Source: Nitrososphaera viennensis EN76 (GTDB lineage: Archaea > Thermoproteota > Nitrososphaeria > Nitrososphaerales > Nitrososphaeraceae). Taken from it: 32,000 nt of DNA. Below are positions 2,694-24,733 of the stretch, in pieces. The position numbers and the translations under genes were made by a program. The stretch covers positions 960,001 through 992,000 of the forward strand of contig NZ_CP007536.1 of assembly GCF_000698785.1 (NCBI RefSeq). Direction: 5' to 3'. Within the stretch, counting starts at the first letter, position 1. Every line of letters starts with the position of its first letter. The notes under the pieces were generated by a model. The model saw only the letters and a program-made list of their open reading frames with translations. It made no database searches and had not been told where the DNA came from.

Positions 2694-3131
2694 ATGAGCG
2701 CAGTAAGCGAGATAATGTCAAAAGGCGCCGTCGCCGTCGACCTTGAACCCGGCACTTCCGCGCTTGATGTCGCCTCTGCGATGGTCAGGGGCAGGGCAGG
2801 CGCGATCATCGCCATCAAGAGTGGCAGGCCGGCAGGCATAATCACCGAGCGCGACCTGCTCAAAAAAGTCGCGGCAAAAAACATCAAGCCGGATCAGGTC
2901 AGGGCCGAGGACATCATGTCGTCGCCGCTTGTGACGGTCAAGGCCTACGACTCTGTCGACACCGCGGCTGGCCTGATGGCCAGGAACAGGATAAAGAGGC
3001 TGCCGGTGCTGGAAGACGACGGGTCGCTTGCAGGCATGCTTTCTGCCACTGACATTGCAAAAAGGCTGGCCAAGATACTGGCCGACGACCAGAGCAGGTA
3101 CAGCTCGCTCAGGCCGGCGCTCGAGCTGTAG
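2694..3131 (+). CDS. CBS-domain pair protein (145 aa)
   Basis: Two CBS repeats are visible: IMSKGAVAV...GIITERDLLKKV and IMSSPLVTV...RIKRLPVLEDDGSLAGMLSATDIAKRL. A T6 tract at 3146..3151 follows the stop. Confidence 0.9.
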   Translation: MSAVSEIMSKGAVAVDLEPGTSALDVASAMVRGRAGAIIAIKSGRPAGIITERDLLKKVAAKNIKPDQVRAEDIMSSPLVTVKAYDSVDTAAGLMARNRIKRLPVLEDDGSLAGMLSATDIAKRLAKILADDQSRYSSLRPALEL

Positions 3132-3267
3132 AAAAGACTGCCAGATTTTTTGCCACATATATGCACCAGCTTTTGGTAACGGTATTTGAAAGCGGGACGC
3201 GCAATACATTTTTTGCAGCAGCATGGCCATGTCATGTAAATACTGCAAGGTGAAACTGTTATCTCAC

Positions 3268-3721
3268 ATGGTTGTTTCGAGAATCCTGGTGCCCCACGAC
3301 GGAACGGAGATGTCCGACAGGGCACTTGAAAAGGCGACCGAGTTTGCCAGGGCGTTCAAGGCAAGGATCATCATCGCGCACATTGTCGACAGCAGGTTCG
3401 TGCCACCAAGCGCAACCCTTGGCTTCATAAGCGACAGGACGTCGCTGGAAGGGGCCAGAACAGAGCTTGTCAAAATCCTAAAGTCCAGCGCAGAGCAAAT
3501 GCTCAAGGAAAAGATGGCAAAGGTAAAAGCGGATGGCATAAGCACCGACTTTGTTCTAGGAGTCGGATCTCCTGCTGACGAGATACAGCATCGCGCGCAG
3601 CACAGAATCAGACCTCATAGTGATGGGAAGCAGGCAGATGAAAAGCAACATCATGATGCTTGGCAGCGTCGCAAGGAAGGTGTCAGAGATGGTGCACTGC
3701 CCCGTCATGATAGTACGCTGA
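3268..3721 (+). pseudogene. Universal stress protein (UspA family) disrupted by a frameshift near 3598..3605
   Basis: The first reading frame gives MVVSRILVPHDGTEMSDRALEKATEFARAFKARIIIAHIVDS...GVGSPADEIQHRAQH. The canonical USP C-terminus ESDLIVMGSRQMKSNIMMLGSVARKVSEMVHCPVMIVR* continues in the next frame (3605..3721). The 211-aa ORF-track product (3223..3858) has a junk C-terminus. Confidence 0.7.
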
Positions 3722-3854
3722 TGATAATGGGGGCAATCAATCCTTGTGCCAGAGACTTCTTCTCTATGCAAAGGGCCTCTTTATCTGCCGCATCCGGCAA
3801 GCGCGCATCCCTCATAGATGTTATAAAGGCGGTCTGTGAATATACAGCTCAGCA

Positions 3855-4370
3855 ATGAGCTCCGAGACTCCGGCACCGTCAAGCGGCTCCCAGCCAGAGC
3901 TGGTCCTTGCAAGGTGGAGCGACCGCTTTTTCGCGTGGCTGATAGACTTTATCATAGTGCAGGTGGCACTTGGCGCAATATTTGCAGCTGCAGCATTTCC
4001 GTTCTGGTTTGGCGATTTTAGCCGCGCAGACAGGTTCTTCTGGGGAGACGGCCCGGTAAGATACGCCATCACGAGCGCCGTGTTCTTTGCATACTGGACG
4101 TTCTTTGAATCTACCAAGGGCCAGTCGATAGGCAAGATGGTGCTAAAGATAAGGACCGTCGACCTTGCAGGCAGGCCGGTTGACACGAAGGGCGCCGCGA
4201 TTCAGAGCTTTGGCAAGGCGTTCCTGCTTCCAATAGACGTCGTCCTTGGCTGGATATTCACAAACGACAAGAGGCAGCGCCTGTTCAACAGGGCAAGCGA
4301 CACGATCGTGATCAAGGAAACTACTGTCAGCACTACGCAACAGCCGGGCGCAAGCTACAGAAAGGATTAG
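3855..4370 (+). CDS. RDD family membrane protein (171 aa)
   Basis: ARWSDRFFAWLIDFIIV is the N-terminal R/D motif. Hydrophobic helices follow, then KGQSIGKMVLKIRTVDLAGRP and FNRASDTIV, which are typical of RDD domains. Confidence 0.85.
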   Translation: MSSETPAPSSGSQPELVLARWSDRFFAWLIDFIIVQVALGAIFAAAAFPFWFGDFSRADRFFWGDGPVRYAITSAVFFAYWTFFESTKGQSIGKMVLKIRTVDLAGRPVDTKGAAIQSFGKAFLLPIDVVLGWIFTNDKRQRLFNRASDTIVIKETTVSTTQQPGASYRKD

Positions 4371-5485
4371 TAGCAGACCATCTGGTCAGTGCCCGTTATC
4401 CGGAACGCCTCTTCCCTTGCGTCAAGCCCAAGGCCGGTGTAAATGTCGACGTGCTTGCCTATTACTCCCGGGCCGGTATCCGCCGCGGTGAACACCATTT
4501 CATTCCACGGCTCGGGAAGCAACGGGATTGCCATCTTTGTAAAATATGGGACAAGGTCCGTGTCAGTCGCCACGCGGCCGACCTGCGCCAAAAGGCCGCT
4601 TGAGGTCCCGGGCTGGCTTGAGACGTGGAAGGCGCCGCCCCAGTGCCCAAGGTAGTCGCCGGCGACGGTCTTGCCCGAGCCCTGTACCATCACCTGGTCT
4701 ACAAATCCCTTGTAGAACGTCCTTGTGCCCTCGTCAGTCAAGACATCGACTGTGCCCGTCCCGGCATAGTCCTCCTCCAGGGGAGTAAAGTAGCCGGTTA
4801 CGCGCCAGCCGTCAGTGCACGCCTTGCCCGCAAGAAGTGGATTGACGTCCAGCTTTTGCGCGGGGTAGATGAGGTACGGCGAAGGGATGTTGTTTCTTGC
4901 CGCAATGTCCGTCCAGGGCACCCCGTACGCCTGGCCTATCCTGTACAGCGTGTCGCCGGGCTGGACGGTGTAGACGATGTTGCCTGCAAGGTAGCCCTGC
5001 ACCCGGATCTCGTCTATTGCGGCCCACTCGTTTTCGGTGTTGCCGTACACGCTTATCTTGACATAGCGCGCGCTGACGTGCTGCTCAAACGCATAGTGCT
5101 CCAGCTCTCCTGTCGACCCGCTGCTGTTGCCCCTGTACGTGTCAAGGTACATTTCGCCGTCAAGGGACGTCCTTATCACAAAGTGCGAGGTCCGCGCGTC
5201 GCCCCTGTACCATGCAATGTCGACGCTGCAGAGTGTTTTTGGCGACCCGAGATCCAGCCTGATCCACGAGCCCGCCCCGTCGTTGGCCCATCCCGTATAC
5301 AGCTTGCCGTCGACGGCATTGCCAGGCGGGCTTGACGGCTGGCTGCCAGATGCCGAGACGTTGGCGGTTTTCAGGCTGCCGCATGACGCCGCGTCGGCCT
5401 GCATTGGAGCCGCAAAGAACAATGACGTGGCAACAATTGCTGATGCTGTCACCATCATCATCATTACGAAGGCAAGACGACGCAA
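4367..5485 (-). CDS. Secreted discoidin (F5/8 type C) - LysM - 3D/MltA-like domain protein (372 aa)
   Basis: The signal peptide is MRRLAFVMMMMVTASAIVATSLFFAAPMQADA. The discoidin-like region is NAVDGKLYTGWANDGAGSWIRLDLG...ARYVKISVYGNTENEWAAIDEIRVQGY. The LysM domain is YTVQPGDTLYRIGQAYGVPWTDIAARNNIPSPYLIYPAQKLDV. The 3D-domain-like C-terminus is RVTGYFTP...VQGSGKT...VATDTDLVPYFTKMAIP...FTAADTGPGVIGKHVDIYTG. Confidence 0.85.
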   Translation of the reverse strand: MRRLAFVMMMMVTASAIVATSLFFAAPMQADAASCGSLKTANVSASGSQPSSPPGNAVDGKLYTGWANDGAGSWIRLDLGSPKTLCSVDIAWYRGDARTSHFVIRTSLDGEMYLDTYRGNSSGSTGELEHYAFEQHVSARYVKISVYGNTENEWAAIDEIRVQGYLAGNIVYTVQPGDTLYRIGQAYGVPWTDIAARNNIPSPYLIYPAQKLDVNPLLAGKACTDGWRVTGYFTPLEEDYAGTGTVDVLTDEGTRTFYKGFVDQVMVQGSGKTVAGDYLGHWGGAFHVSSQPGTSSGLLAQVGRVATDTDLVPYFTKMAIPLLPEPWNEMVFTAADTGPGVIGKHVDIYTGLGLDAREEAFRITGTDQMVCY

Positions 5486-5560
5486 ATTCAGAGGCGAATA
5501 AAGGGCAATCCTTATTTTTCTTCAGGAAAGTCCTTACCTAACAGCGTAGTACAAGATTTA

Positions 5561-6025
5561 CTACTGAAGTTTTGAAACCAGGTTACCTGCTTCCATCTCG
5601 CCCTTTTTCGTGAGCGAGAACAGCTCCTCGCCGGCGTCGCTTGAGCCGTCCTTTTTCACCAGGCCGGCCTTGACCAGCCTGCCGGAAAAGTTGCCGCCGT
5701 CAAACCAGCTGCCGTAGGCCTTGCCCCAGTCGTTGAGCACCTGGCGGATCTGGGCCTTGCTCTGCTTTGGCTTTTGCATCAACGCGACAAGGATAAGGTC
5801 CTGCGTGCCAATGTCATCGACTTTTTCCACGATGCGCTGCTCTAGGCCGCGCGTGACCGTCTTTGAGCTGTCGCTGCTGTTGCCGTACACTGCCTGCTCT
5901 AGGCTTGCCACCCTCTTTTGCAGGTCCAAAACAACCTTTTCAAGATTGGAGCTGTCCAACGGAGTATATGTCAAAATGCAGAGGTACTTATTACTTTCTT
6001 GGCAGGTCCTTCTGCAGCCTGACAA
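5561..6025 (-). CDS. Hypothetical protein with coiled-coil N-terminal half and wHTH-like C-terminal half
   Basis: ORF of up to 154 codons with only TTG starts available (6025 or 5974). The C-terminal half DLILVALMQKPKQSKAQIRQVLNDWGK...GRLVKAGLVKKDG...LFSLTKKGEMEA resembles a winged helix. If the upstream mini-ORF is real, the TTG at 5974 is the likelier start. Confidence 0.6.
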   Translation of the reverse strand: MSGCRRTCQESNKYLCILTYTPLDSSNLEKVVLDLQKRVASLEQAVYGNSSDSSKTVTRGLEQRIVEKVDDIGTQDLILVALMQKPKQSKAQIRQVLNDWGKAYGSWFDGGNFSGRLVKAGLVKKDGSSDAGEELFSLTKKGEMEAGNLVSKLQ

Positions 6026-8498: not shown

Positions 8499-9191
8499 TT
8501 AACAATACATGCTGTTGCCAACGTACTTTTCCTGCACCGAGTCCAGCAGCAGGTTCTGCGCCTTTAGCGACTCGACGGCGGCCGCAAGCGCCTTTTCGCG
8601 TTTTTCAGCCGGCATTGCAGACAAGATGTCGCGCCACACCTGCGCATGCCTCACGTCGGCCTCCTCGTGGATCTCGAAATAGTTGAGCGCGTCCCTGCCG
8701 GTCATGTTGTAGAATTTCATCAGGCCATCAATCTTGCTCCTGCTTATTTTTGGAAGCTCTGCCTCAAACGCGTACATTGCGGCGACTGCCTCCTCAAATG
8801 ACAGCGAAGTGAGCGACATCATCCTTGCCACCGCGTCGTTTGTCTTTGCCGCGCCAGAATAGCTGGCGAGCTCGGATTGTGAAACGCCCATCGCGCCGGC
8901 AAACCTTGCCCACGGCTCGATGTGCTCCGACTCTTCCTTCAGGTTCTCCTCAATGCTGGGAACCTTTGCAGGGTCGGTGTTGGCAGAGGCGATGTTCTGC
9001 ACGAACGCAGGGACTGCCTTTACCAGCTGGAAATATTCCTTGGAGTAGCCCTGCAGGTGGTCGACTGTCAGCCTGCCCTCTGACCACATCTGGTAGAACG
9101 GGTGCTTCAAAAGGCTGCGCTTCTCTATCTCCGAGTCGATCCTCTCTACAAGGTCGTAATTTTCCATATTATAACTCACTTCAACAGCCAT
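8499..9191 (-). CDS. Heme-oxygenase-like di-iron protein of the TenA/PqqC/CADD family (CADD-type candidate p-aminobenzoate synthase)
   Basis: SLLKHPFYQMWSEGRLTVDHLQGYSKEYFQLVKAVPAFV matches the CADD/PqqC N-terminal signature. ExxH-type metal motifs are present (EESEHIEPW, HEEADVRHAQVW). An alternative start is ATG 9167 (MENYDLV...), which has a T-rich box at a better distance. Confidence 0.8.
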   Translation of the reverse strand: MAVEVSYNMENYDLVERIDSEIEKRSLLKHPFYQMWSEGRLTVDHLQGYSKEYFQLVKAVPAFVQNIASANTDPAKVPSIEENLKEESEHIEPWARFAGAMGVSQSELASYSGAAKTNDAVARMMSLTSLSFEEAVAAMYAFEAELPKISRSKIDGLMKFYNMTGRDALNYFEIHEEADVRHAQVWRDILSAMPAEKREKALAAAVESLKAQNLLLDSVQEKYVGNSMYC

Positions 9192-9216
9192 AGAAAAACC
9201 TTATGACAGCAGACGT

Positions 9217-9254
9217 TGTCAAGTCTTAGGTTGATGAACAACCCTGTCAACTTT
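9217..9254. repeat. Left 38-bp terminal inverted repeat
   Basis: Exact reverse complement of 9505..9542. Confidence 0.95.
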
Positions 9255-9504
9255 TGGCTGATCAAATCTTAATCTTGAATATCTGCTTGGATAATGGATT
9301 ATCGTTGTTGGCAGTAAAGAGCGTGAAGCAGACATGCTCGACTGAACCTCTACTACCCGTGATGGAAACATTCGGGCAAATGGTTAATGATTGCATCAGA
9401 ATCGGCCTGCAAATGAAGCAATGGTACAGGAACCCGGGAGCGTGACGCCGGTAATCCTGAAAGTCGATGCAGGCAGGTTGAGTCTTTTACAACGTTGTCA
9501 ACCG

Positions 9505-9542
9505 AAAGTTGACAGGGTTGTTCATCAACCTAAGACTTGACA
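9505..9542. repeat. Right 38-bp terminal inverted repeat
   Basis: Exact reverse complement of 9217..9254. Confidence 0.95.
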
Positions 9543-9559
9543 GAACCTGACAGCAAGGA

Positions 9560-9565
9560 TTTTAT
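9560..9565 (+). promoter_or_regulatory. TATA-like TTTTAT upstream of tRNA-Glu
   Basis: GATTTTATG lies ~30 nt upstream of the tRNA 5' end at 9594. Confidence 0.35.
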
Positions 9566-9593
9566 GTGAATCTCCCACCGATTGTGCTCAAGT

Positions 9594-9712
9594 GCTCCGG
9601 TGGTGTAGTGGCTATTCTGCCGGCCGTCATGTCCGGCAAGGGGCTGCACAGTCCGGTCAAGCATTGTGGCCTTTCGAGTCGCAGATCCCGGGTTCAAATC
9701 CCGGCCGGAGCA
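9594..9712 (+). tRNA. tRNA-Glu (UUC) interrupted by a ~43-nt intron in the D-loop
   Basis: The exons join to GCTCCGGTGGTGTAGT/CCGGTCAAGCATTGTGGCCTTTCGAGTCGCAGATCCCGGGTTCAAATCCCGGCCGGAGCA (76 nt). The fold has acceptor GCTCCGG/CCGGAGC, D-stem GTGT/GCAT, anticodon stem GTGGC/GTCGC, loop CTTTCGA and T-arm CCGGG-TTCAAAT-CCCGG. The sequence closely resembles archaeal tRNA-Glu. Confidence 0.85.
9610..9652 (+). other. Predicted non-canonical tRNA intron (the boundary can slide by 3 nt because AGT is repeated)
   Basis: These are 43 extra nt between D-loop positions ~16/17. They contain the hairpin GCCGG-CCGTCATGT-CCGGC. The bulge-helix-bulge structure was not verified. Confidence 0.6.
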
Positions 9713-9933
9713 CTAAACTATTCTCCCCCATACAATTTGCCAACCAGTAGCAATAATGATGCTGACGCCTTGCATCATAGGTAAAAAAAAGGTCAGAATG
9801 CCAGAGAAAGACAGCATTTTTTGCCAAACATCATATTGTTGTTATTATTGTTCCAGACCTGATTTTGATGGACGCGATTAGAGAAACAATCTCCACAGAA
9901 TTAAAATAAATCTGCAACTTATGGAAAACTGCC

Positions 9934-10146
9934 ATGCAAGTCAATAAGGCGAGCGACCGTCTTTATGCACGTCTTTGGTCCTTGGGCGTCAACGTATCTG
10001 CAATCAGGCACTCCAATCCTTCAGATGACGACCTCGCAGATTTTGTACACAGGTTGACACTTCTCATGAAAAAGTATCGGGTCCAGGTAGTTCCAGGTTT
10101 GGCGCTTTTGTCCTCGTCTCTGATGAATGAAAGCAGAGTCGTCTGA
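9934..10146 (+). CDS. Small protein, paralog A of a LYxRLxSxGVNVSxI...NPSxxDLxxF family (70 aa)
   Basis: MQVNKASDRLYARLWSLGVNVSAIRHSNPSDDDLADFVHRLTLLMKK... is ~50% identical over 42 aa to the unlisted ORF at 11366..11524. A TAAAATAAAT box lies ~25-30 nt upstream and a hairpin terminator downstream. Confidence 0.55.
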   Translation: MQVNKASDRLYARLWSLGVNVSAIRHSNPSDDDLADFVHRLTLLMKKYRVQVVPGLALLSSSLMNESRVV

Positions 10147-10170
10147 TTCTGCACACATGGTTGCTCTCTA

Positions 10171-10193
10171 CAAAAAGCGCTGACTGCTTTTTG
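10171..10193 (+). terminator. Hairpin with T5 run downstream of 9934..10146
   Basis: CAAAAAGC-GCTGACT-GCTTTTTG is a perfect 8-bp stem, 25 nt after the stop codon. Confidence 0.4.
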
Positions 10194-10415
10194 CCGACCT
10201 CTCCCACTCTTCAGGGGAAAATCTTTTAATCAAATACACTGGGGCGGTACAGCACCGGCGATTGCGGCTTCCAACAGAGCATCCTTGAGACGCGGCAAGT
10301 ATCACAGCAGTGTTTAAGGAAGGCCGCTATTAATATGGAAAAAAAGAAAAGAGACGTTACATCTTTTCATCCATTTCTGGATCACTCTTTTAAATTATTA
10401 CTATATAGTTATTTT

Positions 10416-10697
10416 ATGAGATATAGAAGTAGAATGGACATCGCTTCGGCAATTCTTGATGTTGCAAAAGACGGGGCGCTAAAAACGGCAATAATGTACA
10501 AGGCTTACATGTCATTTCCGCAGCTGAATGAATACCTGGAGCTTTTGCTTAGTAATGGGCTGCTAGAGTATGTTCCGGAGCAAAAGATGTACCATACAAC
10601 GAGAAAAGGGAAAAGGTTCCTGGACAACTACGGGGAAGTAGGACGAGCGCTTCTTCCAAAAGAAAACAACAAGAATGCGGCCATGGCAGAAGCGTGA
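10416..10697 (+). CDS. Small archaeal winged-helix DNA-binding protein (HTH_45-like, ~87-93 aa)
   Basis: MRYRSRMDIASAILDVAKDGALKTAIMYKAYMSFPQLNEYLELLLSNGLLEY...YHTTRKGKRFL matches the archaeal small wHTH pattern. TATA-like TTAAATTATTACTATATAG (10390..10408) favours a start at 10416 or 10434 over the ATG at 10335. Confidence 0.7.
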   Translation: MRYRSRMDIASAILDVAKDGALKTAIMYKAYMSFPQLNEYLELLLSNGLLEYVPEQKMYHTTRKGKRFLDNYGEVGRALLPKENNKNAAMAEA

Positions 10698-10870
10698 TTT
10701 AAGCAAGCATCGAATGATCTATAGTAGCAAAAACTGACCGCATTCAATACAATCGTATAGAGGCATATTCGACGCTGGATAAATGTTATAGAACGAAAGA
10801 AACTGTCATGCGGCTGTGTTCATCAGGCCCAAAAAGCCCTTGAGCTCGACGAGCAGGTACTTTTGGTATT

Positions 10871-11179
10871 CTAGGCTTTGGCCATCATTGCCATGCACTT
10901 GGCAAGGTCTCCGGGCCTGGAATAGTGCAGACTGTCGTCGAGCCCGATGTCTTGGCACATCTTTACAAGAAGGATTTCACCCATTTGTCCCAGAAGCTCA
11001 ACGAGTGCGCCTTCAAAGATGTCGGGCCTTTGCATCACCGCCGTACGAATATCCATTTCGGGATCCAGATAATCCTCTGCAATCCTTGTCATTATCACGT
11101 CATATACTTCTGGACCTAACACGTCTTTGATATTTTGCAGCATTGCATCAGCTAATTTAGGAATATTTATCCGAGACAT
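10871..11179 (-). CDS. Hypothetical soluble protein (102 aa)
   Basis: ATG at 11179 gives MSRINIPKLADAMLQNIKDVLGPEVYDVIMTRIAEDYLDPEMDIRTAVMQRPDIFEGALVELLGQMGEILLV... No family was recognised. It is convergent with the wHTH gene. Confidence 0.6.
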   Translation of the reverse strand: MSRINIPKLADAMLQNIKDVLGPEVYDVIMTRIAEDYLDPEMDIRTAVMQRPDIFEGALVELLGQMGEILLVKMCQDIGLDDSLHYSRPGDLAKCMAMMAKA

Positions 11180-11365
11180 CACAATACCCCGAATATGGTA
11201 AATAATGCCGAATAATTTAACAATTTTGGTATTTTAGCCGCTGATGATCGCTCCCATTATTTGTAATAGATTTTGCGTCACTAATGTTATTCTACTAATT
11301 TTTCCACAGACTGATACTTCTCAAAGGATTAATATGCAAAATGTAACTTGCAGCGTGAAAATATT

Positions 11366-11524
11366 ATGGAAAGGGAAGCTTTGACACAAGAGAGCCTCTA
11401 CGAGCGCCTTGAATCTTTTGGAGTAAACGTGTCCATCATTAAAAAAATGAATCCTTCGCTGGAAGATCTTTTAGAGTTCACGGGCAAGCTACAAGAACTG
11501 ATGAAGAATCCCGCCGAAACCTAA
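11366..11524 (+). CDS. Unlisted small ORF (52 aa), paralog B of the 9934..10146 protein
   Basis: ATG at 11366 gives MEREALTQESLYERLESFGVNVSIIKKMNPSLEDLLEFTGKLQELMKNPAET*. Its upstream region shares TCCACAGA and AAAT-TG-AACTT blocks with paralog A. Confidence 0.55.
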   Translation: MEREALTQESLYERLESFGVNVSIIKKMNPSLEDLLEFTGKLQELMKNPAET

Positions 11525-11961
11525 GTGTGCTCCCCTGTCGACCTCCTGCCAGGCGATGCTAGCCAGGATTCCAGATAGCTGTTCACTGCAGTACCAATCT
11601 CCTTGTTCATCCCGCCATCTTTAGGTTCAAAACAAAATTTATTCAAGACAAGACAACTGCTTCCTCCTCTCTTACAGAAGATGATGATGGCAAGATGGCA
11701 AGCCCGCGATGCGCAAAAAAAACTATCTTGGATGCAATAGCATGTACACGCACATATTGACACTTCTAGTCAATCTTTCACTTCTTGGGGTCCAGCATTG
11801 CCCATAGATGGAATGTTCAAAACTCCTTCACAGAAAATTATCAAATAATGGCGTGAATCACCCAAGTACGCGACGGTGCTACGTTAGGATTTCAAAATAA
11901 TCGAATTATGTGCGCCACTTGCTCAGATATTTAAGAACATGTGATTCGAGAGATTACATTG

Positions 11962-12543
11962 ATGTCAACCCAGATCAGGAACAAAACGACGTTGTTCTTC
12001 CTGTCGGTTCTTGGCGTCGCACTCGCGTCGATGGCAATGGCATCCGCAGCCAACCAGGCTTTTGGCAGCGGCAGCGACTACTATTACAAGAGTTGCGGGA
12101 AATGGTACGAGCACGAGACAAGTACTGACTACGAGTACAAGCTCAAGAAATCGCAAGACTCTTCCGAGCATGAAAAAGGCGGCGGCTACGGCAAGTCGTA
12201 CGACTATGAGTACTCTGACGATGACAAGAAGGATTATGACAAGGACGATAAGGACAAGAACAAGTCATCATACGACTATGGAAGTGGCGGCGGCTCGAAG
12301 GATTCCAGCGACTATGAGAAGTACAAGAGTGACCACACATACAAGTACGAATATGAAAAGTCAAGCAGCACGGTAAGACATGACGGAGACGAGTGGTGCG
12401 ACGAAGACGAGGATGATGACGACAAGGACGACCACTACAACAACAACGACAAATTCTACAAAGATGATGACGACAAGGATGATAATGATGATGACTATGA
12501 TGATGACGACGACAATGATGATGACGACCACGACGGATACTGA
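11962..12543 (+). CDS. Secreted, extremely acidic low-complexity protein with poly-Asp C-terminal tail (193 aa)
   Basis: MSTQIRNKTTLFFLSVLGVALASMAMASAANQAFG is a signal peptide. A Tyr/Lys/Asp/Ser/Gly-rich body follows, ending ...DEDEDDDDKDDHYNNNDKFYKDDDDKDDNDDDYDDDDDNDDDDHDGY. Confidence 0.8.
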   Translation: MSTQIRNKTTLFFLSVLGVALASMAMASAANQAFGSGSDYYYKSCGKWYEHETSTDYEYKLKKSQDSSEHEKGGGYGKSYDYEYSDDDKKDYDKDDKDKNKSSYDYGSGGGSKDSSDYEKYKSDHTYKYEYEKSSSTVRHDGDEWCDEDEDDDDKDDHYNNNDKFYKDDDDKDDNDDDYDDDDDNDDDDHDGY

Positions 12544-12603
12544 CAGACTCCAAAACTACTATCGCTAACAACATGGCAATGCGTATAATTTGAAAGCAAA
12601 AGG

Positions 12604-12643
12604 GGTAACTTGAGCAAGTTACCACTCCCCCCTTCTTTTTTTT
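12604..12643 (+). terminator. Hairpin plus T8 terminator of the acidic-protein gene
   Basis: GGTAACTT-GAGC-AAGTTACC is a perfect 8-bp stem. It is followed by CCTTCTTTTTTTTATT. Confidence 0.5.
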
Positions 12644-12849
12644 ATTCCCGACGATGTCACGGGATAAACTCGAAACAGGGTAGGTACCTTGTGTTATTCT
12701 CGCAAAATGCTGACCGCCGCCAGAACGCCAAAAAAAGAATTTTGTGTCAATGACAATCAATAATTAATAATAAAAAATGAGGAAAGGCCTCCCCACGACC
12801 TTCCCTCCCGCAGCGCAGATGCTGTCGAGCCGAAACCCTTTTTCCTTTT

Positions 12850-13413
12850 TTACGGGATTGACCTGCTGTACAGCTTGCCTTCCAGCGCCAGCTTGTACAT
12901 TTCCGCCACGTAGGGGTTCTTTGCAGGTGCCTCTGCACCAAGTTCCACCAGACGTGCATACACCCTTACCACGTACGCAAGGGCTCCCATGAATGCCACT
13001 ACGACACCCATGTTGAACATCCAGTGGTTCGGAACGGCGAATATTTCTTCCACGAACCAGAAGTGCCATAGCTCGTTGACGCCGATTGTGAACATGGTCG
13101 CAAGGTAGCCGAGGATTGTCAGCTTTAGACCTGTGTTCATCGAGTTGTTCGGGCCTCGGAGTATCGGGACCTTCCTGTCATAGATTGCCACCATACCCCA
13201 GCCGACAGGCAGAGCCACAAAGTGGCTGTACAGCCACCAGTGGGCCGGCGTGAAGGCCGAGTCGCGGATGGACGTCTGGTGCAGCGAACCGTCGACAAAG
13301 TTGTCGACTTCTACTGAGGCAGCGATGGAACCGAGCATGATCACCATGATGTAGATCTTTTTCAGTCTCTGGATTTCGACTTCTTTTGGTATCAGTGCTG
13401 GCATTTGTGCCAT
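12850..13413 (-). CDS. amoC: Ammonia monooxygenase subunit C, archaeal type (187 aa)
   Basis: MAQMPALIPKEVEIQRLKK...VEVDNFVDGSLHQTSIRDSAFTPAHWWLYSHFVALPVGWG...NELWHFWFVEEIFAVPNHWMFNMG...NPYVAEMYKLALEGKLYSRSIP is near-identical in pattern to Nitrososphaera AmoC. The true start is ATG 13413; the ORF-track N-terminal extension is spurious. Confidence 0.95.
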   Translation of the reverse strand: MAQMPALIPKEVEIQRLKKIYIMVIMLGSIAASVEVDNFVDGSLHQTSIRDSAFTPAHWWLYSHFVALPVGWGMVAIYDRKVPILRGPNNSMNTGLKLTILGYLATMFTIGVNELWHFWFVEEIFAVPNHWMFNMGVVVAFMGALAYVVRVYARLVELGAEAPAKNPYVAEMYKLALEGKLYSRSIP

Positions 13414-13449
13414 AGTTCTTTCACGTGTGAAAAGGATCGTCAATCGCCG

Positions 13450-13457
13450 ATATAAAG
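13450..13457 (-). promoter_or_regulatory. TATA-like box (CTTTATAT on the minus strand) upstream of amoC
   Basis: It lies ~37 nt upstream of the amoC ATG, which implies a short (~10-15 nt) leader. Confidence 0.35.
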
Positions 13458-13656
13458 TGAACTTTATGACAATTATGTCAATTTCTCTAGACCTTTGATA
13501 GACAGACAATTCCAATATCTACAATTATATTGTGTTGCAATTTTTTTATAAAATTTTGAAGAATTGTACATAATCAATTATGCTTATCAATCAAGATTGT
13601 CATATACGCGGGCATGCTTTTACACTGGTGAGCGCACGACGCAATATCAGGCCGGT

Positions 13657-13684
13657 TACGTGCGTGTGTGCGTGTGTGTATGTG
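13657..13684. repeat. 28-nt perfect alternating pyrimidine-purine (TG/CG/TA) tract
   Basis: TACGTGCGTGTGTGCGTGTGTGTATGTG lies in the 526-bp amoC/polyprenyl-synthase divergent intergenic region. Confidence 0.9.
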
Positions 13685-13939
13685 GGTCATGCCTCCATGC
13701 CAGCTCCGTTTGTTTTGAGGAGTTGCGTCGATCTTGCGCCAGAGCAGGACAGCATATCCCATACGACGTCTGCCATATGCTACAGACAGGGCGGATCAAG
13801 CAGGCAAGCAAGCCGAATGGAAGAAGGTTTTCCAAGCATCTTTTTCCCATACTCTGAATGTTATTGATATATCCGTATTGATATGGTGATAAATTAATAT
13901 GGTCAACTAATCGGATCACCTCTGGGAAAGAGCTAGTTC

Positions 13940-14803
13940 TTGGGCAGGAGAAACATAGAGGCCAACCCGCTGACAGACCTTTGTGGCGACTACCTCGGTC
14001 GGATTGAAGAAGCGCTCAAGCGCGAGCTCGACTCTTATTCATGGTCAGAATTTCACGCGCCGTTGCGCTATGCCTGCGATGGCGGCAAGCGCATCAGGCC
14101 GCTCATCCTGGTTTTGTCTGCAGAGGCAATAAAGGGCAGGAAGGCAAACGGCGACGCGTACCTTGCCGCATCAGCAATCGAACTTTTGCACACCGAATCC
14201 ATAATACATGACGACATAATCGACGAGGAGCACACCCGCAGGGGCAAGCCGTCGTTCCACGTGAAATACGGCTACAACAGCAGCATCCTCACCGCGGATT
14301 TCGTGCTTGGAGTCATACTTTCCATCGGCTCGAAACTCAAGAACCCCCGCGTCCTCAACGAGCTGTCAAACGCCGCGACGCGCATGAGCGAAGGCGAGAT
14401 GATGGAGATAAGGCTGAACAAGTCGCCGGCGATAACCGAGGACGACTACATCAAGGTGCTCGACTACAAGACGGCGTCGCTGTTTGAGACGTCGGCCAAG
14501 ATAGGCGCGATACTGGGCGAGGGCACAGAGGAGCAGATCCACGCCATGACCACCTTTGGCCACCTGCTCGGAATCGCCTACCAGATCCACGACGACCTCA
14601 TTGACTGGAACGACGAGGACAAGCTGTTCAACATGCTGGTCAAGCAGAACGACAGGTCCAAGGACTTTATCGACAGGATGGAAAAGTTGTACCAGTCGTA
14701 CGCTGCAAAGGCCAAGGATGAACTGCTAAAGGTGGCGCCGGCAAACAGCGAGGTCATCAGGCACCTGGAATTGATGACGGACCTAGCATCGGTGCAGATC
14801 TAG
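13940..14803 (+). CDS. Polyprenyl diphosphate synthase (trans-IPPS, GGPP-synthase type; 287 aa, TTG start)
   Basis: The first Asp-rich motif is LLHTESIIHDDIIDEEHTRRGKPS and the second is GIAYQIHDDLID. GKRIRP is in the expected position. Confidence 0.9.
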   Translation: MGRRNIEANPLTDLCGDYLGRIEEALKRELDSYSWSEFHAPLRYACDGGKRIRPLILVLSAEAIKGRKANGDAYLAASAIELLHTESIIHDDIIDEEHTRRGKPSFHVKYGYNSSILTADFVLGVILSIGSKLKNPRVLNELSNAATRMSEGEMMEIRLNKSPAITEDDYIKVLDYKTASLFETSAKIGAILGEGTEEQIHAMTTFGHLLGIAYQIHDDLIDWNDEDKLFNMLVKQNDRSKDFIDRMEKLYQSYAAKAKDELLKVAPANSEVIRHLELMTDLASVQI

Positions 14804-14950: not shown

Positions 14951-16462
14951 TCAATGCAGCGGGCCGGCCGGGATGCCAGAGATAAAGCTGAGGTCAGGCA
15001 CCGCCTTTGAAGCAAAGTCGATGAGGGGCGCGTGCCAGATGCCAAAGCCCACCATGAACACCACGGCGAACACCAGCACCGCTATCATGGCCCTGGGCTC
15101 CTTTACCCGCTTCATGTCCGGCGACTCCTCCATGTACATCTTTCTCATTATCCAGGCATAGTAGCCAAGCGAGAGCGCGCTGTTGAGGACGCCTGCGATT
15201 GCAAGCCACGGGCCCCAGTCTACCACTGGGCCGGTGTTTATAGCTGCGCCAAAGAGCATCAGCTTGCTCCAGAACCCGTTGAGCGGAGGCACGCCTGCAA
15301 GGGCGAGTAGCGCGATTGAAAACGTGGCGGCAGTTATCGGCATGCGCCTTCCAAGGCCGCGGTACTTTTCAAGGCTATAGCTGGCAAGCGTTATCGCCAC
15401 AGCCGCGACGGCGATGAAACCTGCCGACTTCATGACGGCGTGGTTGATGATGTGGAACAGCGAGCCGGCAAGCGCCTGGTCGGAGTATGGCGCCAGCGCG
15501 ATGCCTATCATGATGTAGCCTGCCTGGGCTATTGACGAGTAGGCAAGCATCCTCGGCACGCTCCTCTGCATTATGGCGCCGAGGTTTCCAATCGTCATGG
15601 TAAAGACTGCAAGTATCGCAAGGGTGAGCGCCCAGTCGGCGTTGAGCGCAAACATGCCAAGGACCACCACGCGAAGGGCTGCTGCAAAGCCGGCCTTCTT
15701 GGTGCCTGACGCAAGCAGGCCGCCGATGGTTGCAGGCGAGCCCTCGTAGGCGTCTGGGAGCCACATGTGGAACGGGACGAGGCCCATCTTGAATCCAAAG
15801 CCGGCGATAAAGAGCGCGATTGCGAGCAGGCCTACAGGCATCATCGACGGGTCGAGGCTGGTCAGCGCCTTTACAGAGTCGCCGATGTTTGTGGTGCCAG
15901 TCATGCCGTAGACTAGGCCTATTGCAAAGACTATGAGCGCCGACGACAGCGCGCCGAACATGAAATACTTTATTGCAGCCTCGTTTGACACCGGGTCGCG
16001 TTTCTGGAAGCCTGCAAGGGCGTACGTCGGCAACGACATCAATTCCCACGCGACCAGGAGCATCACGAGGTCTGTCGAGTAGGCAATGAGCACCATGCCG
16101 ATGCTTGAAAGCAGGATCAGCGAGTAGTACGCCGCCGGGTTTGACCTGCCCTTCCAGTAGTTCCACGACGACGCTGTCATCATGAGAGACACGAGCAGCA
16201 GCGCGACTGCAAAGAACGAGCCGAACAGGTCGTCCGTGAGCACGTCCTGCCCGAACGCGACTGCAGGGAGCACCTCGCCGGAGAACACGCGGAATATCAC
16301 GATCCCCATGGCGACGATTAGCGCGCCAAACGCGATTGCGCTGTACACCTTGTTGCGGTCGACGCCCTTTTCGCGCCTTCCGGCGTCGATGGCGGGTATG
16401 GCCAGGCCTACCACGCCCAGTATTACCGTCACCAGTATTGGCGTTGAGAGCAGGTCTACCAT
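14951..16462 (-). CDS. nuoN: NADH-quinone oxidoreductase (complex I) subunit N
   Basis: 503-aa polytopic antiporter-like subunit with LVAWELMSLPTYALAGFQKRDPVSNEAAIKYFMFGALSS. It is the last gene of the nuo operon. Confidence 0.9.
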   Translation of the reverse strand: MVDLLSTPILVTVILGVVGLAIPAIDAGRREKGVDRNKVYSAIAFGALIVAMGIVIFRVFSGEVLPAVAFGQDVLTDDLFGSFFAVALLLVSLMMTASSWNYWKGRSNPAAYYSLILLSSIGMVLIAYSTDLVMLLVAWELMSLPTYALAGFQKRDPVSNEAAIKYFMFGALSSALIVFAIGLVYGMTGTTNIGDSVKALTSLDPSMMPVGLLAIALFIAGFGFKMGLVPFHMWLPDAYEGSPATIGGLLASGTKKAGFAAALRVVVLGMFALNADWALTLAILAVFTMTIGNLGAIMQRSVPRMLAYSSIAQAGYIMIGIALAPYSDQALAGSLFHIINHAVMKSAGFIAVAAVAITLASYSLEKYRGLGRRMPITAATFSIALLALAGVPPLNGFWSKLMLFGAAINTGPVVDWGPWLAIAGVLNSALSLGYYAWIMRKMYMEESPDMKRVKEPRAMIAVLVFAVVFMVGFGIWHAPLIDFASKAVPDLSFISGIPAGPLH

Positions 16463-16478
16463 TTTTTCTCCATCTCCT

Positions 16479-20289: not shown

Positions 20290-20309
20290 CTTTCTTCTTC
20301 TCCCTCTCT

Positions 20310-20612
20310 CTATCCCCGCATGCTCCTGAATTCTGCGACGTCGATTTCCTTGTAGAGGCGGTACGCCACGATAACGAGGCCAAGGCCGATTGCTACTTCG
20401 GCCGCCGCGATCGCGATGGAAAAGAGCGCAAAGACCTGCCCCTGGACGTTGCCGGTCGACCTTGAAAATGCGACGACCACAAGGTTTGCAGCATTGACGA
20501 TTATCTCTATTGAAATCAGCATCCTTATCGCGTTGCGCTTGACCACGATGCCGTATATGCCGACGGCCACGAGCGCGACCGACACTATGAGGAAGTCTAT
20601 CAATTCGGTCAT
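20310..20612 (-). CDS. nuoK: Complex I subunit K
   Basis: 100 aa with three TM helices (MTELIDFLIVSVALVAVGIYGIVVKRNAIRMLISIEIIVNAANL). An ATGA overlap joins it to the nuoJ stop. Confidence 0.9.
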   Translation of the reverse strand: MTELIDFLIVSVALVAVGIYGIVVKRNAIRMLISIEIIVNAANLVVVAFSRSTGNVQGQVFALFSIAIAAAEVAIGLGLVIVAYRLYKEIDVAEFRSMRG

Positions 20613-22888: not shown

Positions 22889-22890
22889 TC

Positions 22891-24051: not shown

Positions 24052-24060
24052 ATGTTATCA

Positions 24061-24732: not shown

Positions 24733-24733
24733 G

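What the first reader, a model, noticed from the sequence alone, without database searches (positions are those of the whole stretch)
4367..5485. Secreted discoidin + LysM + 3D/MltA-like protein: murein-directed domain set in an organism that should have no murein
Behind a clear signal peptide the sequence shows three elements. The first is a galactose-binding-like/discoidin domain. The second is a textbook LysM (YTVQPGDTLYRIGQAYGVPWTDIAARNNIPSPYLIYPAQKLDV). The third is a C-terminal region with the TGYFTP...QGSG...ATD...AADTGPGVIGKHVDIYTG pattern of 3D-domain/MltA-like lytic transglycosylases.

From established knowledge, LysM binds peptidoglycan or chitin-type glycans, and 3D domains occur in bacterial cell-wall-cleaving enzymes. 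Ammonia-oxidising archaea have S-layers, not murein.

The inferred role is either a bacterial-cell-wall-targeting (antagonistic or scavenging) exoenzyme acquired from bacteria, or a glycan-binding protein repurposed for the archaeal envelope or matrix.
Basis: partly seen in the sequence, partly recalled or inferred. Interest (0 to 1): 0.7.

Follow-up and report, generated by a model that had tools for sequence, protein, structure and literature searches.

The report
Secreted murein-cutting enzyme in Nitrososphaera
A soil ammonia-oxidising archaeon that has no bacterial-type cell wall encodes a secreted protein with two sugar-binding domains and a compact, apparently active copy of the bacterial wall-cutting enzyme MltA, so it most likely acts on the walls of neighbouring bacteria, although nobody has tested this.

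Summary
ORF 4367..5485 (-) encodes a signal peptide, a discoidin/CBM32 domain, one LysM and a C-terminal 3D/MltA-like module.

The window is Nitrososphaera viennensis. The protein is AIC15373.1 / UniProt A0A060HIM2, already named "Peptidoglycan-binding lysin domain and 3D domain protein". No held paper discusses it.

The C-terminal 150 residues are a compact MltA:
- The predicted fold matches only MltA lytic transglycosylases at the top.
- MltA T99, V161-QGS164, D261, D297 and catalytic D308 map to T230, V267-QGS270, D308, D336 and D347.
- These residues are conserved in a 113-protein family.

The module occurs in five AOA genera and several bacterial phyla. Its fusion partners elsewhere are mainly murein-directed.

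At this locus the LysM is a 46-residue indel relative to positional orthologs. All three domains are under purifying selection (dN/dS 0.12-0.24).

Best reading: an exported lytic transglycosylase aimed at bacterial murein (confidence about 0.55). Chitin or the archaeon's own glycans remain possible.

It extends the archaeal peptidoglycan hydrolases of Strock et al. 2025, whose screen omitted 3D domains.

The parts
4367..5485 (-). Whole gene. Longest ORF is 372 aa from TTG 5485; the NCBI-annotated start is ATG 5464 (365 aa, AIC15373.1 / WP_075054395.1); the stop codon is 4367-4369.
5390..5485 (-). Signal peptide, residues 1-32 (MRRLAFVMMMMVTASAIVATSLFFAAPMQADA), with predicted cleavage after ADA. 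Probably Sec-type, because the RR is not conserved in orthologs.
   Evidence: Hydrophobic core; lone low-pLDDT helix 2-19; conserved A-x-A motif; translation. No SignalP was run.
5006..5359 (-). Discoidin / F5_F8_type_C (CBM32) domain, residues 43-160. Ca-site residues D59 and T64, Arg98 and Trp154 correspond to AlyQ D209, T214, R248 and W303.
   Evidence: Pfam E 1.5e-19; AlyQ CBM32 7d29 E 4.5e-25 with alignment; residue roles from PMC5651945; conservation in 9 relatives
4844..4972 (-). Single LysM domain, residues 172-214. Together with its linker it is a 46-residue in-frame indel relative to the LysM-less positional orthologs.
   Evidence: Pfam E 5.1e-14; beta-alpha-alpha-beta in the model; indel and dN/dS 0.12; translation
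4370..4819 (-). Compact MltA-like catalytic module, residues 223-372, bracketed by conserved Cys223 and Cys371.
   Evidence: Model pLDDT 88.3; Foldseek top 14 hits are all MltA family; profile against MltA E 1.4e-4; conservation
4796..4798 (-). Thr230 of the TGYFTP strand, equivalent to MltA T99, which orients the catalytic Asp.
   Evidence: (T in 105 of 113)
4673..4684 (-). QGSG motif (Q268-G271), equivalent to MltA Q162-G165 on the domain-B face that contacts the -1/-2 sugars.
4406..4573 (-). Pfam 3D domain match (residues 305-360), containing D308 (codon 4562-4564; MltA D261) and D336 (codon 4478-4480; MltA D297, which binds the N-acetyl of the -2 sugar).
4445..4447 (-). Codon of Asp347 (HVDIY), equivalent to the catalytic Asp308 of E. 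coli MltA.
   Evidence: The D308A mutant chains 2pi8, 2pic and 2pjj differ from wild type at exactly this aligned position; D in 100 of 113 family members; translation
5486..5560 (-). 75-nt intergenic region upstream of the gene, with A/T-rich stretches (AAAAATAAGG, CTTTATTC) that could be archaeal TATA elements. The upstream gene on the same strand (5561-6025, weak wHTH) is conserved at this position in orthologous loci.
   Evidence: Sequence; synteny. The promoter assignment is inference only.

Best explanation
The gene encodes an exported, modular lytic transglycosylase of the MltA/3D (GH102) type whose substrate is most likely bacterial peptidoglycan outside the archaeal cell.

Proposed sequence of events:
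1. Sec export, then cleavage after Ala32 (inferred).
2. The Ca-stabilised CBM32 domain binds a carboxylated sugar through Arg98 and Trp154. The LysM binds a beta-1,4-GlcNAc-containing backbone. Together they hold the enzyme on a cell-wall or matrix surface (inferred from residue conservation and from what is established for these families).
3. The compact MltA module accommodates the glycan strand in a groove between the double-psi barrel face (T230, D308, D336, G338) and a reduced domain-B face (V267-Q-G-S270).
4. Asp347, oriented by Thr230, acts as the acid/base. It cleaves the MurNAc-beta-1,4-GlcNAc bond and forms a 1,6-anhydroMurNAc end, as in MltA and YuiC (inferred by homology).
5. The outcome is weakening or lysis of neighbouring bacteria, or solubilisation of murein debris. 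Which of these occurs, and what the archaeon gains, is unknown.

Shown here: the domain set, the fold, conservation of the catalytic residues, purifying selection, chromosomal vertical inheritance and the family's distribution. Not shown: secretion, catalysis and substrate.
For: - Fold: a module model with pLDDT 88.3 has MltA-family lytic transglycosylases as its 14 best PDB matches (E 1.6e-6 to 9e-3, query TM-score up to 0.65). YuiC follows, matching over the 70-residue core only. Expansins score E>0.5.
- Sequence: the family profile matches E. coli MltA at E 1.4e-4 in three collinear blocks. The D308A mutant chains pinpoint the catalytic Asp as window D347.
- Residue roles come from PMC4499186: T99 orients D308; D297 binds the -2 N-acetyl; V161 and S164 contact the sugars. 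All have counterparts here.
- Conservation in 113 family proteins: D347 in 100, D336 in 111, D308 in 106, T230 in 105.
- Purifying selection against the 84% ortholog: dN/dS is 0.20 for CBM32, 0.12 for LysM and 0.24 for the module, with dS 0.35-0.55.
- Fusion partners of the module elsewhere: SLT (2), PG_binding_1 (2), LysM (2), Muramidase, Amidase_2, Amidase_3, PG_binding_3, and Polysacc_deac_1 (11).
- LysM was added to an existing CBM32 + module protein at this very locus.
- Precedents: secreted archaeal peptidoglycan hydrolases kill bacteria (PMC12352652). Bdellovibrio secretes an MltA-like enzyme into prey, and its catalytic Asp is essential (PMC10127604).
Against: - No biochemical, proteomic or expression evidence was found for this protein.
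- LysM and MltA/3D sites also accept chitin-type ligands. MltA binds chitohexaose, and YuiC converts penta-GlcNAc to a 1,6-anhydro product. So murein specificity is not established.
- The CBM32 resembles uronate-binding modules, not known murein binders.
- The gene is chromosomal, syntenic and widespread in AOA. That differs from the patchy, plasmid-biased pattern Strock et al. regard as typical of weapons, and would also fit an endogenous role.
- Most family members have EGWG where MltA and this clade have QGSG, so the domain-B face is not uniformly MltA-like.
- The Pfam 3D score of this particular protein is only just above the cut-off.
Confidence: 0.55

Rival explanations
1. The same enzyme chemistry is aimed at a non-murein beta-1,4-GlcNAc polymer from other organisms, chiefly fungal or arthropod chitin or chito-oligosaccharides in soil. 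LysM provides chitin binding. The purpose could be matrix penetration or release of N-containing sugars.
For: - LysM domains bind chitin as well as murein. PDB matches to our LysM include chitin-binding CVNH-LysM, CEBiP and Ecp6 at E-values similar to those of murein-binding ones.
- MltA binds chitohexaose, and YuiC makes 1,6-anhydro-GlcNAc-GlcNAc from penta-GlcNAc (PMC4499186).
- The commonest fusion partner in the family is a CE4-type polysaccharide deacetylase (11 of 113), which acts on chitin as well as murein.
- N. viennensis is a soil organism (established knowledge).
Against: - The other fusion partners are murein-specific: Amidase_2, Amidase_3, Muramidase, PG_binding_1, PG_binding_3 and SLT.
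- To my knowledge no MltA/3D enzyme is known to degrade polymeric chitin. The YuiC product appeared only after long incubation during crystallisation.
- No chitinase, chitin-binding CBM or GlcNAc-uptake gene lies nearby.
Confidence: 0.17
2. The protein works on the archaeon's own surface, either remodelling or attaching to S-layer N-glycans or an exopolysaccharide matrix. LysM would recognise a GlcNAc-beta-1,4-GlcNAc core and the CBM32 would recognise acidic sugars. This is the 'repurposed for the archaeal envelope' reading.
For: - The module is inherited vertically at stable chromosomal loci in several AOA genera, like a housekeeping gene rather than a mobile weapon.
- N. viennensis AIC14646.1 belongs to the TACK clade of the Agl24/Alg14-13 family, whose Sulfolobus member makes the chitobiose N-glycan core (PMC8993221).
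- Acidic nonulosonic sugars have been proposed for an AOA S-layer (PMC4836417), which would suit an Arg/Trp carboxylate-type CBM32 site.
- CBM32 modules are expanded in secreted Nitrososphaeraceae proteins (PMC11131427).
Against: - No GlcNAc polymer or N-glycan structure is known for any AOA (to my knowledge, and none was found in the searches).
- The nearby GT2 is HpnB/CruG-like, not a NodC or chitin synthase.
- No conserved envelope, glycosylation or division gene accompanies the module across AOA.
- Bacterial members of the same family, at 36-42% identity, live in murein-containing cells and fuse the module to murein enzymes.
- The N-terminal binding domains are swapped freely among AOA lineages, which is typical of enzymes aimed at varying external targets.
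Confidence: 0.18
3. The C-terminal module is a non-catalytic double-psi beta-barrel (expansin/RlpA-like). The protein would then be only a glycan-binding adhesin or wall-loosening factor.
For: - Double-psi barrels include non-enzymatic glycan binders. Expansins and RlpA-like proteins appear far down the structural hit lists.
- E. coli mltA mutants have no phenotype under laboratory conditions (PMC10127604).
Against: - All three signature Asp residues, the orienting Thr and the QGSG face are retained and conserved. A pure binder would not need them.
- Expansin matches are insignificant (E>0.5, probability <0.3), against probability 1.00 for MltA.
- The module's dN/dS is 0.18-0.24.
Confidence: 0.06
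4. Artefact: a bacterial gene on a contaminating or misassembled contig, or a decaying recent horizontal import.
For: - The domain set is typical of bacteria.
- One bacterial-labelled MAG contig (L020, Chthoniobacteraceae) carries a homolog that groups with Nitrososphaeraceae, showing that binning errors or transfers do occur in this family.
Against: - The identical protein lies on the 2.53-Mb N. viennensis chromosome and on contigs from many independent samples.
- amoC, a nuo operon and geranylgeranyl reductase are in the same window.
- Flanking genes are syntenic with other Nitrososphaera contigs.
- The ORF is intact and under purifying selection.
Confidence: 0.01

Closest known systems
E. 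coli MltA and its homologs (membrane-bound lytic murein transglycosylase A; CAZy GH102; PDB 2ae0, 2pi8, 3czb, 7esj, 6qk4)
   Same: - Best structural and sequence match.
- Double-psi barrel with a second lobe inserted after the TGY(Y/F)TP strand.
- T99, V161-QGS164, D261, D297 and D308 all have counterparts: T230, V267-QGS270, D308, D336 and D347.
   Different: - The inserted lobe is about 65 residues instead of about 140, and there is no Pfam MltA (PF03562) match.
- There is no lipoprotein anchor.
- A family-specific Cys223...Cys371 pair and an invariant Glu237 are absent from MltA.
- It is preceded by CBM32 and LysM domains.
- The host has no murein.
Firmicute Sps proteins: YocH (SpsA group, 2 LysM + 3D) and YuiC (PDB 4wjt, 4wlk)
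   Same: - Secreted, with LysM placed N-terminal to a reduced MltA-type catalytic domain that keeps the three Asp residues (PMC4499186).
- The YuiC core superposes over 70 residues.
   Different: - YuiC lacks the inserted lobe entirely and is a domain-swapped dimer. This module keeps a compact lobe with the MltA QGSG motif.
- There is no sequence-level hit to YuiC.
- It has one LysM rather than two, plus a CBM32.
Archaeal modular peptidoglycan hydrolases (Strock et al., PLoS Biol 2025, PMC12352652), e.g. Woldo and Danwoldo of Halogranum salarium, and LysM+SLT proteins of Nitrososphaerales family CADDZS01
   Same: - An archaeon without murein encodes a signal-peptide-bearing protein that combines a murein-binding domain (LysM) with a murein-cleaving catalytic domain. 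That is the same logic of inferred cross-domain action.
   Different: - The catalytic class (3D/MltA lytic transglycosylase) was not in their domain list, so this family was invisible to their screen.
- It is chromosomal and vertically inherited in AOA rather than patchy or plasmid-biased.
- It carries an extra CBM32.
- No killing activity has been shown.
Bdellovibrio bacteriovorus Bd3285 and Bd0519 (secreted MltA-like lytic transglycosylases used on prey; PMC10127604)
   Same: - An MltA-type 3D enzyme exported to act on another cell's murein.
- Short forms (237-247 aa) consist of essentially the 3D domain alone.
   Different: - It is bacterial and is delivered into the prey periplasm during invasion.
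- It has no LysM or CBM32.
CBM32 modules of alginate lyase AlyQ (7d29, 5xnr) and Yersinia YeCBM32 (2jd9)
   Same: - Closest solved relatives of the discoidin domain (E 4.5e-25 and 3.5e-11).
- The Ca site, the carboxylate-binding Arg (R248 to R98) and the key Trp (W303/W124 to W154) are conserved.
   Different: - Those modules accompany polysaccharide lyases or stand alone in pectin or alginate utilisation.
- Here the module is attached to a murein-type enzyme.
- Its ligand is untested.

Membership tests
MltA/3D lytic transglycosylases (Pfam PF06725 3D + PF03562 MltA; GH102) | Three conserved aspartates, including the catalytic one (E. coli MltA D261, D297, D308) | tested here: met
   D308, D336 and D347 align to them (with the mutant chains marking D308). 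Their roles are described in PMC4499186. They are conserved in 106, 111 and 100 of 113 family members.
MltA/3D lytic transglycosylases (Pfam PF06725 3D + PF03562 MltA; GH102) | Thr of the TGYYTP strand that orients the catalytic Asp (MltA T99) | tested here: met
   T230 in TGYFTP aligns to MltA 96-106. It is T in 105 of 113 members.
MltA/3D lytic transglycosylases (Pfam PF06725 3D + PF03562 MltA; GH102) | Two-lobed fold: a double-psi beta-barrel (domain A) with an inserted domain B that forms the substrate groove | tested here: inconclusive
MltA/3D lytic transglycosylases (Pfam PF06725 3D + PF03562 MltA; GH102) | Pfam 3D domain match above the gathering threshold | tested here: met
   24.5 bits against 23.8 for the window protein, which is marginal. 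Relatives score 29-45 bits, and 101 of 113 family members match.
MltA/3D lytic transglycosylases (Pfam PF06725 3D + PF03562 MltA; GH102) | Cleaves MurNAc-beta-1,4-GlcNAc with formation of 1,6-anhydroMurNAc | not testable with these tools
   This needs purified enzyme, sacculi and LC-MS.
Sps/YuiC-type 'stripped-down MltA' (Firmicute stationary-phase survival proteins) | Catalytic domain reduced to the barrel, with no inserted lobe | tested here: not met
   A 65-residue insert with helix 259-268 and the QGSG motif is present between TGYFTP and VATD. YuiC aligns over only 70 columns and gives no sequence hit.
Sps/YuiC-type 'stripped-down MltA' (Firmicute stationary-phase survival proteins) | SpsA-type architecture: signal peptide, then LysM, then the 3D catalytic domain | tested here: met
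   LysM 172-214 precedes the module 223-372. There is one LysM rather than two, plus an extra CBM32.
Archaeal modular peptidoglycan hydrolases sensu Strock et al. 2025 | At least one listed catalytic Pfam domain plus at least one listed cell-wall-binding Pfam domain in an archaeal protein | tested here: not met
   LysM is on their list, but neither PF06725 nor PF03562 is (S10 table). N. viennensis is absent from the Nitrososphaeria rows of S2. The protein fits the concept but not the operational definition.
Archaeal modular peptidoglycan hydrolases sensu Strock et al. 2025 | Secretion signal and bactericidal activity | not testable with these tools
   The signal peptide is inferred only. Killing assays are needed.
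LysM (PF01476) | Full-length match to the 43-residue beta-alpha-alpha-beta module | tested here: met
   E 5.1e-14 over profile positions 1-42 of 43. The model shows strand-helix-helix-strand with pLDDT of about 80. dN/dS is 0.12.
CBM32, uronate-binding subgroup (AlyQ domain B, YeCBM32) | Structural Ca site (D209, T214), carboxylate-binding Arg (R248) and key Trp (W303/W124) | tested here: met
   The alignment places D59, T64, R98 and W154 at these positions. Residue roles are in PMC5651945. All four are conserved in the 9 discoidin-bearing relatives. Ligand binding itself was not tested.
Expansin / RlpA-like non-catalytic double-psi barrels | Closest structural similarity to expansin or RlpA domains, and lack of the MltA catalytic triad | tested here: not met
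   Expansins score E 0.5-0.9 with probability <0.3. RlpA-like viral proteins score E>0.3. The catalytic residues are present.

The most novel reading that the evidence does not exclude
Ammonia-oxidising archaea as a group carry an anciently acquired, vertically inherited, secreted MltA-type lytic transglycosylase whose targeting domains are swapped lineage by lineage (CBM32, LysM, an uncharacterised W..G.I.D.EF motif domain, and others). If it is active on murein, AOA routinely breach or scavenge bacterial cell walls. That would be an unrecognised antagonistic or trophic link between the main nitrifiers and their bacterial neighbours. Alternatively, the conserved enzyme reveals an as yet unknown GlcNAc-type polymer in AOA envelopes or matrix.
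Probability: 0.25. Interest if true: 0.8.

Novelty: new variant of a known kind. Interest (0 to 1): 0.5.

Why it matters
AOA are among the most abundant archaea and control the first step of nitrification. They are generally viewed as self-sufficient chemolithoautotrophs with few known direct interactions with bacteria. A conserved, secreted and apparently catalytically intact murein-cleaving enzyme would add them to the archaea that act on bacterial walls.

It would also extend that phenomenon to a catalytic class (MltA/3D, GH102) that the only systematic survey did not screen for.

N. viennensis EN76 is available in pure culture and the protein is small and modular. The question is therefore directly testable: does a nitrifying archaeon lyse bacteria or mine their wall debris?

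If the target instead proves to be an archaeal glycan, that would reveal an unknown component of the AOA envelope.

The module is also a structurally interesting intermediate between full MltA and the stripped-down YuiC.

Tried and rejected
1. Nearby GT2 as a chitin-like synthase. This would have supported a self-made GlcNAc polymer. The protein (L063:14832-16091) is HpnB/CruG-like over its full length (E 6e-55), and NodC matches only partially (E 6e-10). Rejected.

2. Conserved operon partners. Clustering of neighbours in 24 AOA loci found only genus-level synteny and no partner shared across clades. In the window the flanks are RDD, Usp, CBS, an adenylate cyclase and a small wHTH gene. These are uninformative.

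3. Viral origin. BFVD matches are bacteriophage 3D proteins and are weaker than the MltA matches (best E 1.9e-4, query TM-score at most 0.47).

4. Direction of inter-domain transfer. In an NJ tree with 100 bootstraps, archaea and bacteria mostly separate, but deep nodes have <40% support. Unresolved.

5. Tat export. The RR of the TTG-start N-terminus is not conserved in orthologs. Sec is assumed.

6. Lipobox. The 'AASC' after the signal peptide resembles one, but orthologs have E or T at -2 and -1. Cys35 co-varies with Cys86 inside the discoidin domain, so it is more likely a disulfide.

7. Equivalence of invariant Glu237 to YuiC Glu98, the proposed second carboxylate. YuiC could not be aligned by sequence, even with the insert deleted. 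Untested.

9. Expression evidence. The gene was not found in the held supplements of the N. viennensis transcriptome paper. The Kerou et al. 2016 proteome paper is not held.

10. Literature searches linking AOA with LysM, lytic transglycosylases, GH102, discoidin or peptidoglycan-binding returned nothing specific.

11. The first tree script timed out.
Full report
**Observation**

Gene callers and NCBI start at the ATG cluster 21 nt downstream, giving 364 or 365 aa. This does not change the mature protein.

Pfam finds three domains:
- F5_F8_type_C (discoidin/CBM32) at residues 43-160, E 1.5e-19.
- One full-length LysM at 172-214, E 5.1e-14.
- A 3D domain at 305-360, E 3.2e-5 (24.5 bits against a cut-off of 23.8).

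The third call is marginal on its own but is secured by the evidence below.

The N-terminus has a hydrophobic core at residues 4-24, followed by ADA|AS. It is modelled as an isolated low-confidence helix. The A-x-A motif is conserved in orthologs. I could not run a signal-peptide predictor, so export is inferred.

**Organism and context**

The exact protein belongs to a cluster containing AIC15373.1 / WP_075054395.1 / UniProt A0A060HIM2 from the 2.53-Mb chromosome of Nitrososphaera viennensis. NCBI names it 'discoidin domain-containing protein' and UniProt names it 'Peptidoglycan-binding lysin domain and 3D domain protein'. The domain composition is therefore already on record as an annotation.

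The window also carries the following:
- amoC (12850..13515, minus strand)
- a nuo operon (about 14951-25255)
- polyprenyl synthetase
- geranylgeranyl reductase
- a tRNA-Met

The same protein occurs on contigs from many independent samples. Its neighbourhood (wHTH gene upstream; RDD, cyclase, DUF4443 and CbtAB downstream) is syntenic with a Nitrososphaera MAG whose ortholog is 84% identical. Contamination or a recent mobile import can be excluded.

I found no paper that discusses the protein.

**The catalytic module is a compact MltA**

Residues 223-372 are the most conserved part of the protein across 20 relatives. Invariant or nearly invariant positions include C223, W227, T230, Y232, P235, E237, G269, G271, D308, D336, D347 and C371.

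A profile of this module hits E. coli MltA (2ae0) at E 1.4e-4 in three collinear blocks:
- WkiTGYfTPve with MltA 96-106
- vkieGsGkt with MltA MDVQGSGYIDFGD
- the 3D region with MltA 256-318

The D308A mutant structures (2pi8, 2pic, 2pjj) differ from wild type at exactly the column aligned with window D347.

The YuiC structure paper (PMC4499186) gives the roles of the MltA residues, which map as follows:

| E. coli MltA | Role | Window residue |
|---|---|---|
| D308 | Catalytic carboxylate | D347 |
| T99 | Orients D308 | T230 |
| D297 | Binds the N-acetyl of the -2 sugar | D336 |
| D261 | Third conserved Asp | D308 |
| V161, S164 (domain B) | Contact the -1/-2 sugars | V267, S270 (in V267-Q-G-S270) |

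An AlphaFold model of residues 216-372 (14-sequence alignment, pLDDT 88.3, pTM 0.79) has MltA-family lytic transglycosylases from eight entries as its 14 best PDB matches (E 1.6e-6 to 9e-3, probability 1.00, query TM-score up to 0.65). YuiC follows, aligned over only 70 columns. Expansins are insignificant.

The stretch between the TGYFTP strand and the 3D region is about 65 residues, against about 140 in MltA, and there is no PF03562 match. Architecturally the module therefore lies between full MltA and the fully stripped YuiC.

The C223/C371 pair (110 and 111 of 113 members) probably closes the module with a disulfide, which fits an extracellular protein. I could not measure the distance in the model.

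**The family and its distribution**

An exhaustive profile search of 1.84 billion cluster representatives found 115 clusters at E<=1e-30, 238 at E<=1e-10 and 1060 at E<=1e-3.

A pattern-based scan of one genome per species returned the module from two groups:
- AOA, at 40-69% identity: Nitrososphaera, Nitrosarchaeum, Nitrosotenuis, Nitrosopumilus and Nitrosotalea.
- Bacteria, at 36-42% identity: Pyrinomonadaceae; Bermanella, Kangiellaceae, Saccharospirillaceae and Colwelliaceae; Thiothrix; Verrucomicrobia; Saccharibacteria; Actinomycetota.

The scan is not exhaustive. It missed N. viennensis itself, so absences mean nothing.

In an NJ tree the window protein groups with other Nitrososphaera sequences (99%) and with Nitrosotalea (95%). 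Nitrosopumilaceae form other groups and bacteria cluster together, but deep nodes are unsupported. The direction and age of inter-domain transfer remain open.

Neighbourhoods are conserved only within genera. That points to vertical inheritance at stable chromosomal sites.

Across 113 family proteins the catalytic residues are conserved: D347 in 100, D336 in 111, D308 in 106 and T230 in 105.

Domains fused to the module elsewhere are mostly murein-directed: Polysacc_deac_1 (11), SLT (2), PG_binding_1 (2), LysM (2), and one each of Muramidase, Amidase_2, Amidase_3 and PG_binding_3. This is the main indirect argument that the family's usual substrate is peptidoglycan.

**Modular evolution at this locus**

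AOA members combine the constant module with different N-terminal parts:
- CBM32 + LysM: the window, P0002 and P0003-5
- CBM32 only: P0006-9
- LysM only: P0015
- an unassigned beta-rich domain: P0021 and P0022
- a roughly 40-residue W..G.I.D.EF..A..YL motif with no Pfam match: the Nitrosopumilales-type proteins of about 250 aa

The LysM-less CBM32 genes lie at the same locus as the window gene, with the wHTH gene upstream (67-68% identity) and the RDD gene downstream (68-72%). One genome has two tandem copies.

The difference is a clean 46-residue in-frame indel. In a module tree rooted on the Nitrosopumilales-type sequences, the LysM-bearing proteins are paraphyletic. The simplest history is one LysM gain at the base of this Nitrososphaera clade, followed by loss in the P0006-9 lineage.

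Against the 84% ortholog, dN/dS is 0.20 for CBM32, 0.12 for LysM and 0.24 for the module, with dS 0.35-0.55. All three domains are maintained by selection, the LysM most strongly.

**The discoidin domain**

Its closest solved relatives are the CBM32 of alginate lyase AlyQ (E 4.5e-25) and YeCBM32 (E 3.5e-11).

The AlyQ paper (PMC5651945) identifies a structural Ca site (D209, T214), an Arg that binds a carboxylate (R248), and a Trp critical for polygalacturonate binding in YeCBM32 (W303/W124). In the alignment these are D59, T64, R98 and W154. All four are conserved in the nine discoidin-bearing relatives.

The domain is therefore of the type that binds carboxylated sugars, but its ligand here is unknown.

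Similar CBM32 modules (about 50% identity) occur in other secreted Nitrososphaeraceae proteins. They are reported as expanded and highly expressed in soil Nitrososphaeraceae (PMC11131427). The module was therefore probably recruited from the archaeon's own repertoire.

**Mechanism and rivals**

I commit to the following reading at about 0.55 confidence. The protein is exported. The CBM32 and LysM hold it on a glycan surface. The compact MltA module cleaves the MurNAc-GlcNAc bond of bacterial murein, with D347 as acid/base, to give 1,6-anhydro ends.

Two precedents make this credible:
- Secreted archaeal peptidoglycan hydrolases kill bacteria (PMC12352652).
- Bdellovibrio exports an MltA-like enzyme into prey, and its catalytic Asp is essential (PMC10127604).

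The rivals are:
- **Chitin or other foreign GlcNAc glycans (0.17).** LysM and MltA/YuiC sites accept chito-oligosaccharides, and YuiC even makes a 1,6-anhydro product from penta-GlcNAc.
- **The archaeon's own S-layer glycans or matrix (0.18).** This is supported by vertical inheritance, by a TACK-clade Agl24/Alg14-13 homolog in N. viennensis, and by proposed acidic sugars on an AOA S-layer. It is weakened by the absence of any known AOA GlcNAc polymer, by the nearby GT2 being HpnB-like rather than a chitin synthase, and by the lack of conserved envelope partners.
- **A non-catalytic binder (0.06).**
- **An artefact (0.01).**

**Comparison with what is known, and novelty**

The fold and catalytic site are those of MltA. 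The LysM-then-3D order echoes Firmicute YocH. The biological logic is that of Strock et al. 2025.

The protein fails that paper's operational definition only because 3D and MltA domains were not on their catalytic list. In Nitrososphaerales they report only LysM+SLT proteins in family CADDZS01 and one GH108 protein.

What is new:
- a catalytic class not yet considered for archaea
- a compact MltA variant with a Cys-Cys clasp
- a CBM32-LysM-MltA architecture
- a family-wide, vertically inherited presence in ammonia oxidisers, with swapping of targeting domains

What is not new is the bare domain annotation.

I rate it a new variant of a known kind, with interest 0.5. It is a good, directly testable lead in a cultured organism, but its function is entirely inferred.

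**Caveats**

- The trees are NJ with weak deep support.
- The fusion census has no taxonomy attached.
- The genome scan is pattern-limited.
- dN/dS uses a simple Nei-Gojobori estimate on pairs.

Noticed in passing
L002:1143-2096 and L002:2542-3468 (Nitrososphaera sp. MAG L.E.AR.1): The LysM-less ortholog is present as two tandem copies (53% and 49% identical to the window protein) at the same HTH...RDD locus. This is a local duplication of the CBM32 + MltA-like gene.
   Followed up: partly
window 2694-3858 (+): The CBS-domain and Usp gene pair lies between the RDD and cyclase genes in N. viennensis but is absent from the orthologous position in L068, where RDD abuts the cyclase gene. The Usp match covers only profile positions 4-97 of 141 and the C-terminal third of the ORF looks low-complexity. 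It may be a truncated or frameshifted Usp.
   Followed up: no
window 12850-13515 (-) and about 10871-11179 (-): A solitary amoC copy (Pfam AmoC E 5e-14, matching only profile positions 78-243), with no amoA or amoB beside it, and a small NitrOD2-domain ORF about 1.7 kb away.
   Followed up: partly
P0026-P0041, N-terminal residues about 30-70 (e.g. P0027 'DTFLPDWVFKLAEFWQSGDISDNEFGNAVKYLQEQNVIQL'): Nitrosopumilales-type family members replace CBM32 and LysM with a conserved motif of about 40 residues (W..G.I.D.EF..A..YL) that has no significant Pfam match. It may be an uncharacterised AOA surface- or glycan-binding module.
   Followed up: no
L020:5140-5589 (contig DASYIS010000555.1, labelled Chthoniobacteraceae): This homolog, labelled bacterial, pairs with a Nitrososphaeraceae sequence (L023) in the tree (58% bootstrap). 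It could be a misbinned archaeal contig or a recent archaeon-bacterium transfer.
   Followed up: no
window residues C35 and C86 (nt about 5381-5383 and 5228-5230): Two cysteines in the discoidin domain are conserved in all nine discoidin-bearing relatives, which suggests a disulfide. The 'AASC' just after the signal peptide superficially resembles a lipobox, but orthologs do not conserve it as one.
   Followed up: partly
L063:14832-16091 (about 6.8 kb beyond the window start, in the same conserved neighbourhood): A GT2 glycosyltransferase best matches the hopanoid-associated HpnB and the carotenoid glycosyltransferase CruG (E 6e-55 and 5e-32, both below the family cut-offs). It sits next to a Polyketide_cyc2/SRPBCC gene and CbtAB, and may glycosylate a lipid in this archaeon.
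   Followed up: partly
window 9001-14000 and 26001-28000: G+C drops to 41-48% in these stretches, against 55-60% in most of the window. The first stretch holds the amoC/NitrOD2 region.
   Followed up: no
Genome-contig scan: The pattern-based scan did not return N. viennensis itself, although both search patterns are present in the window protein. Absences in that list cannot be read as gene absence.
   Followed up: no
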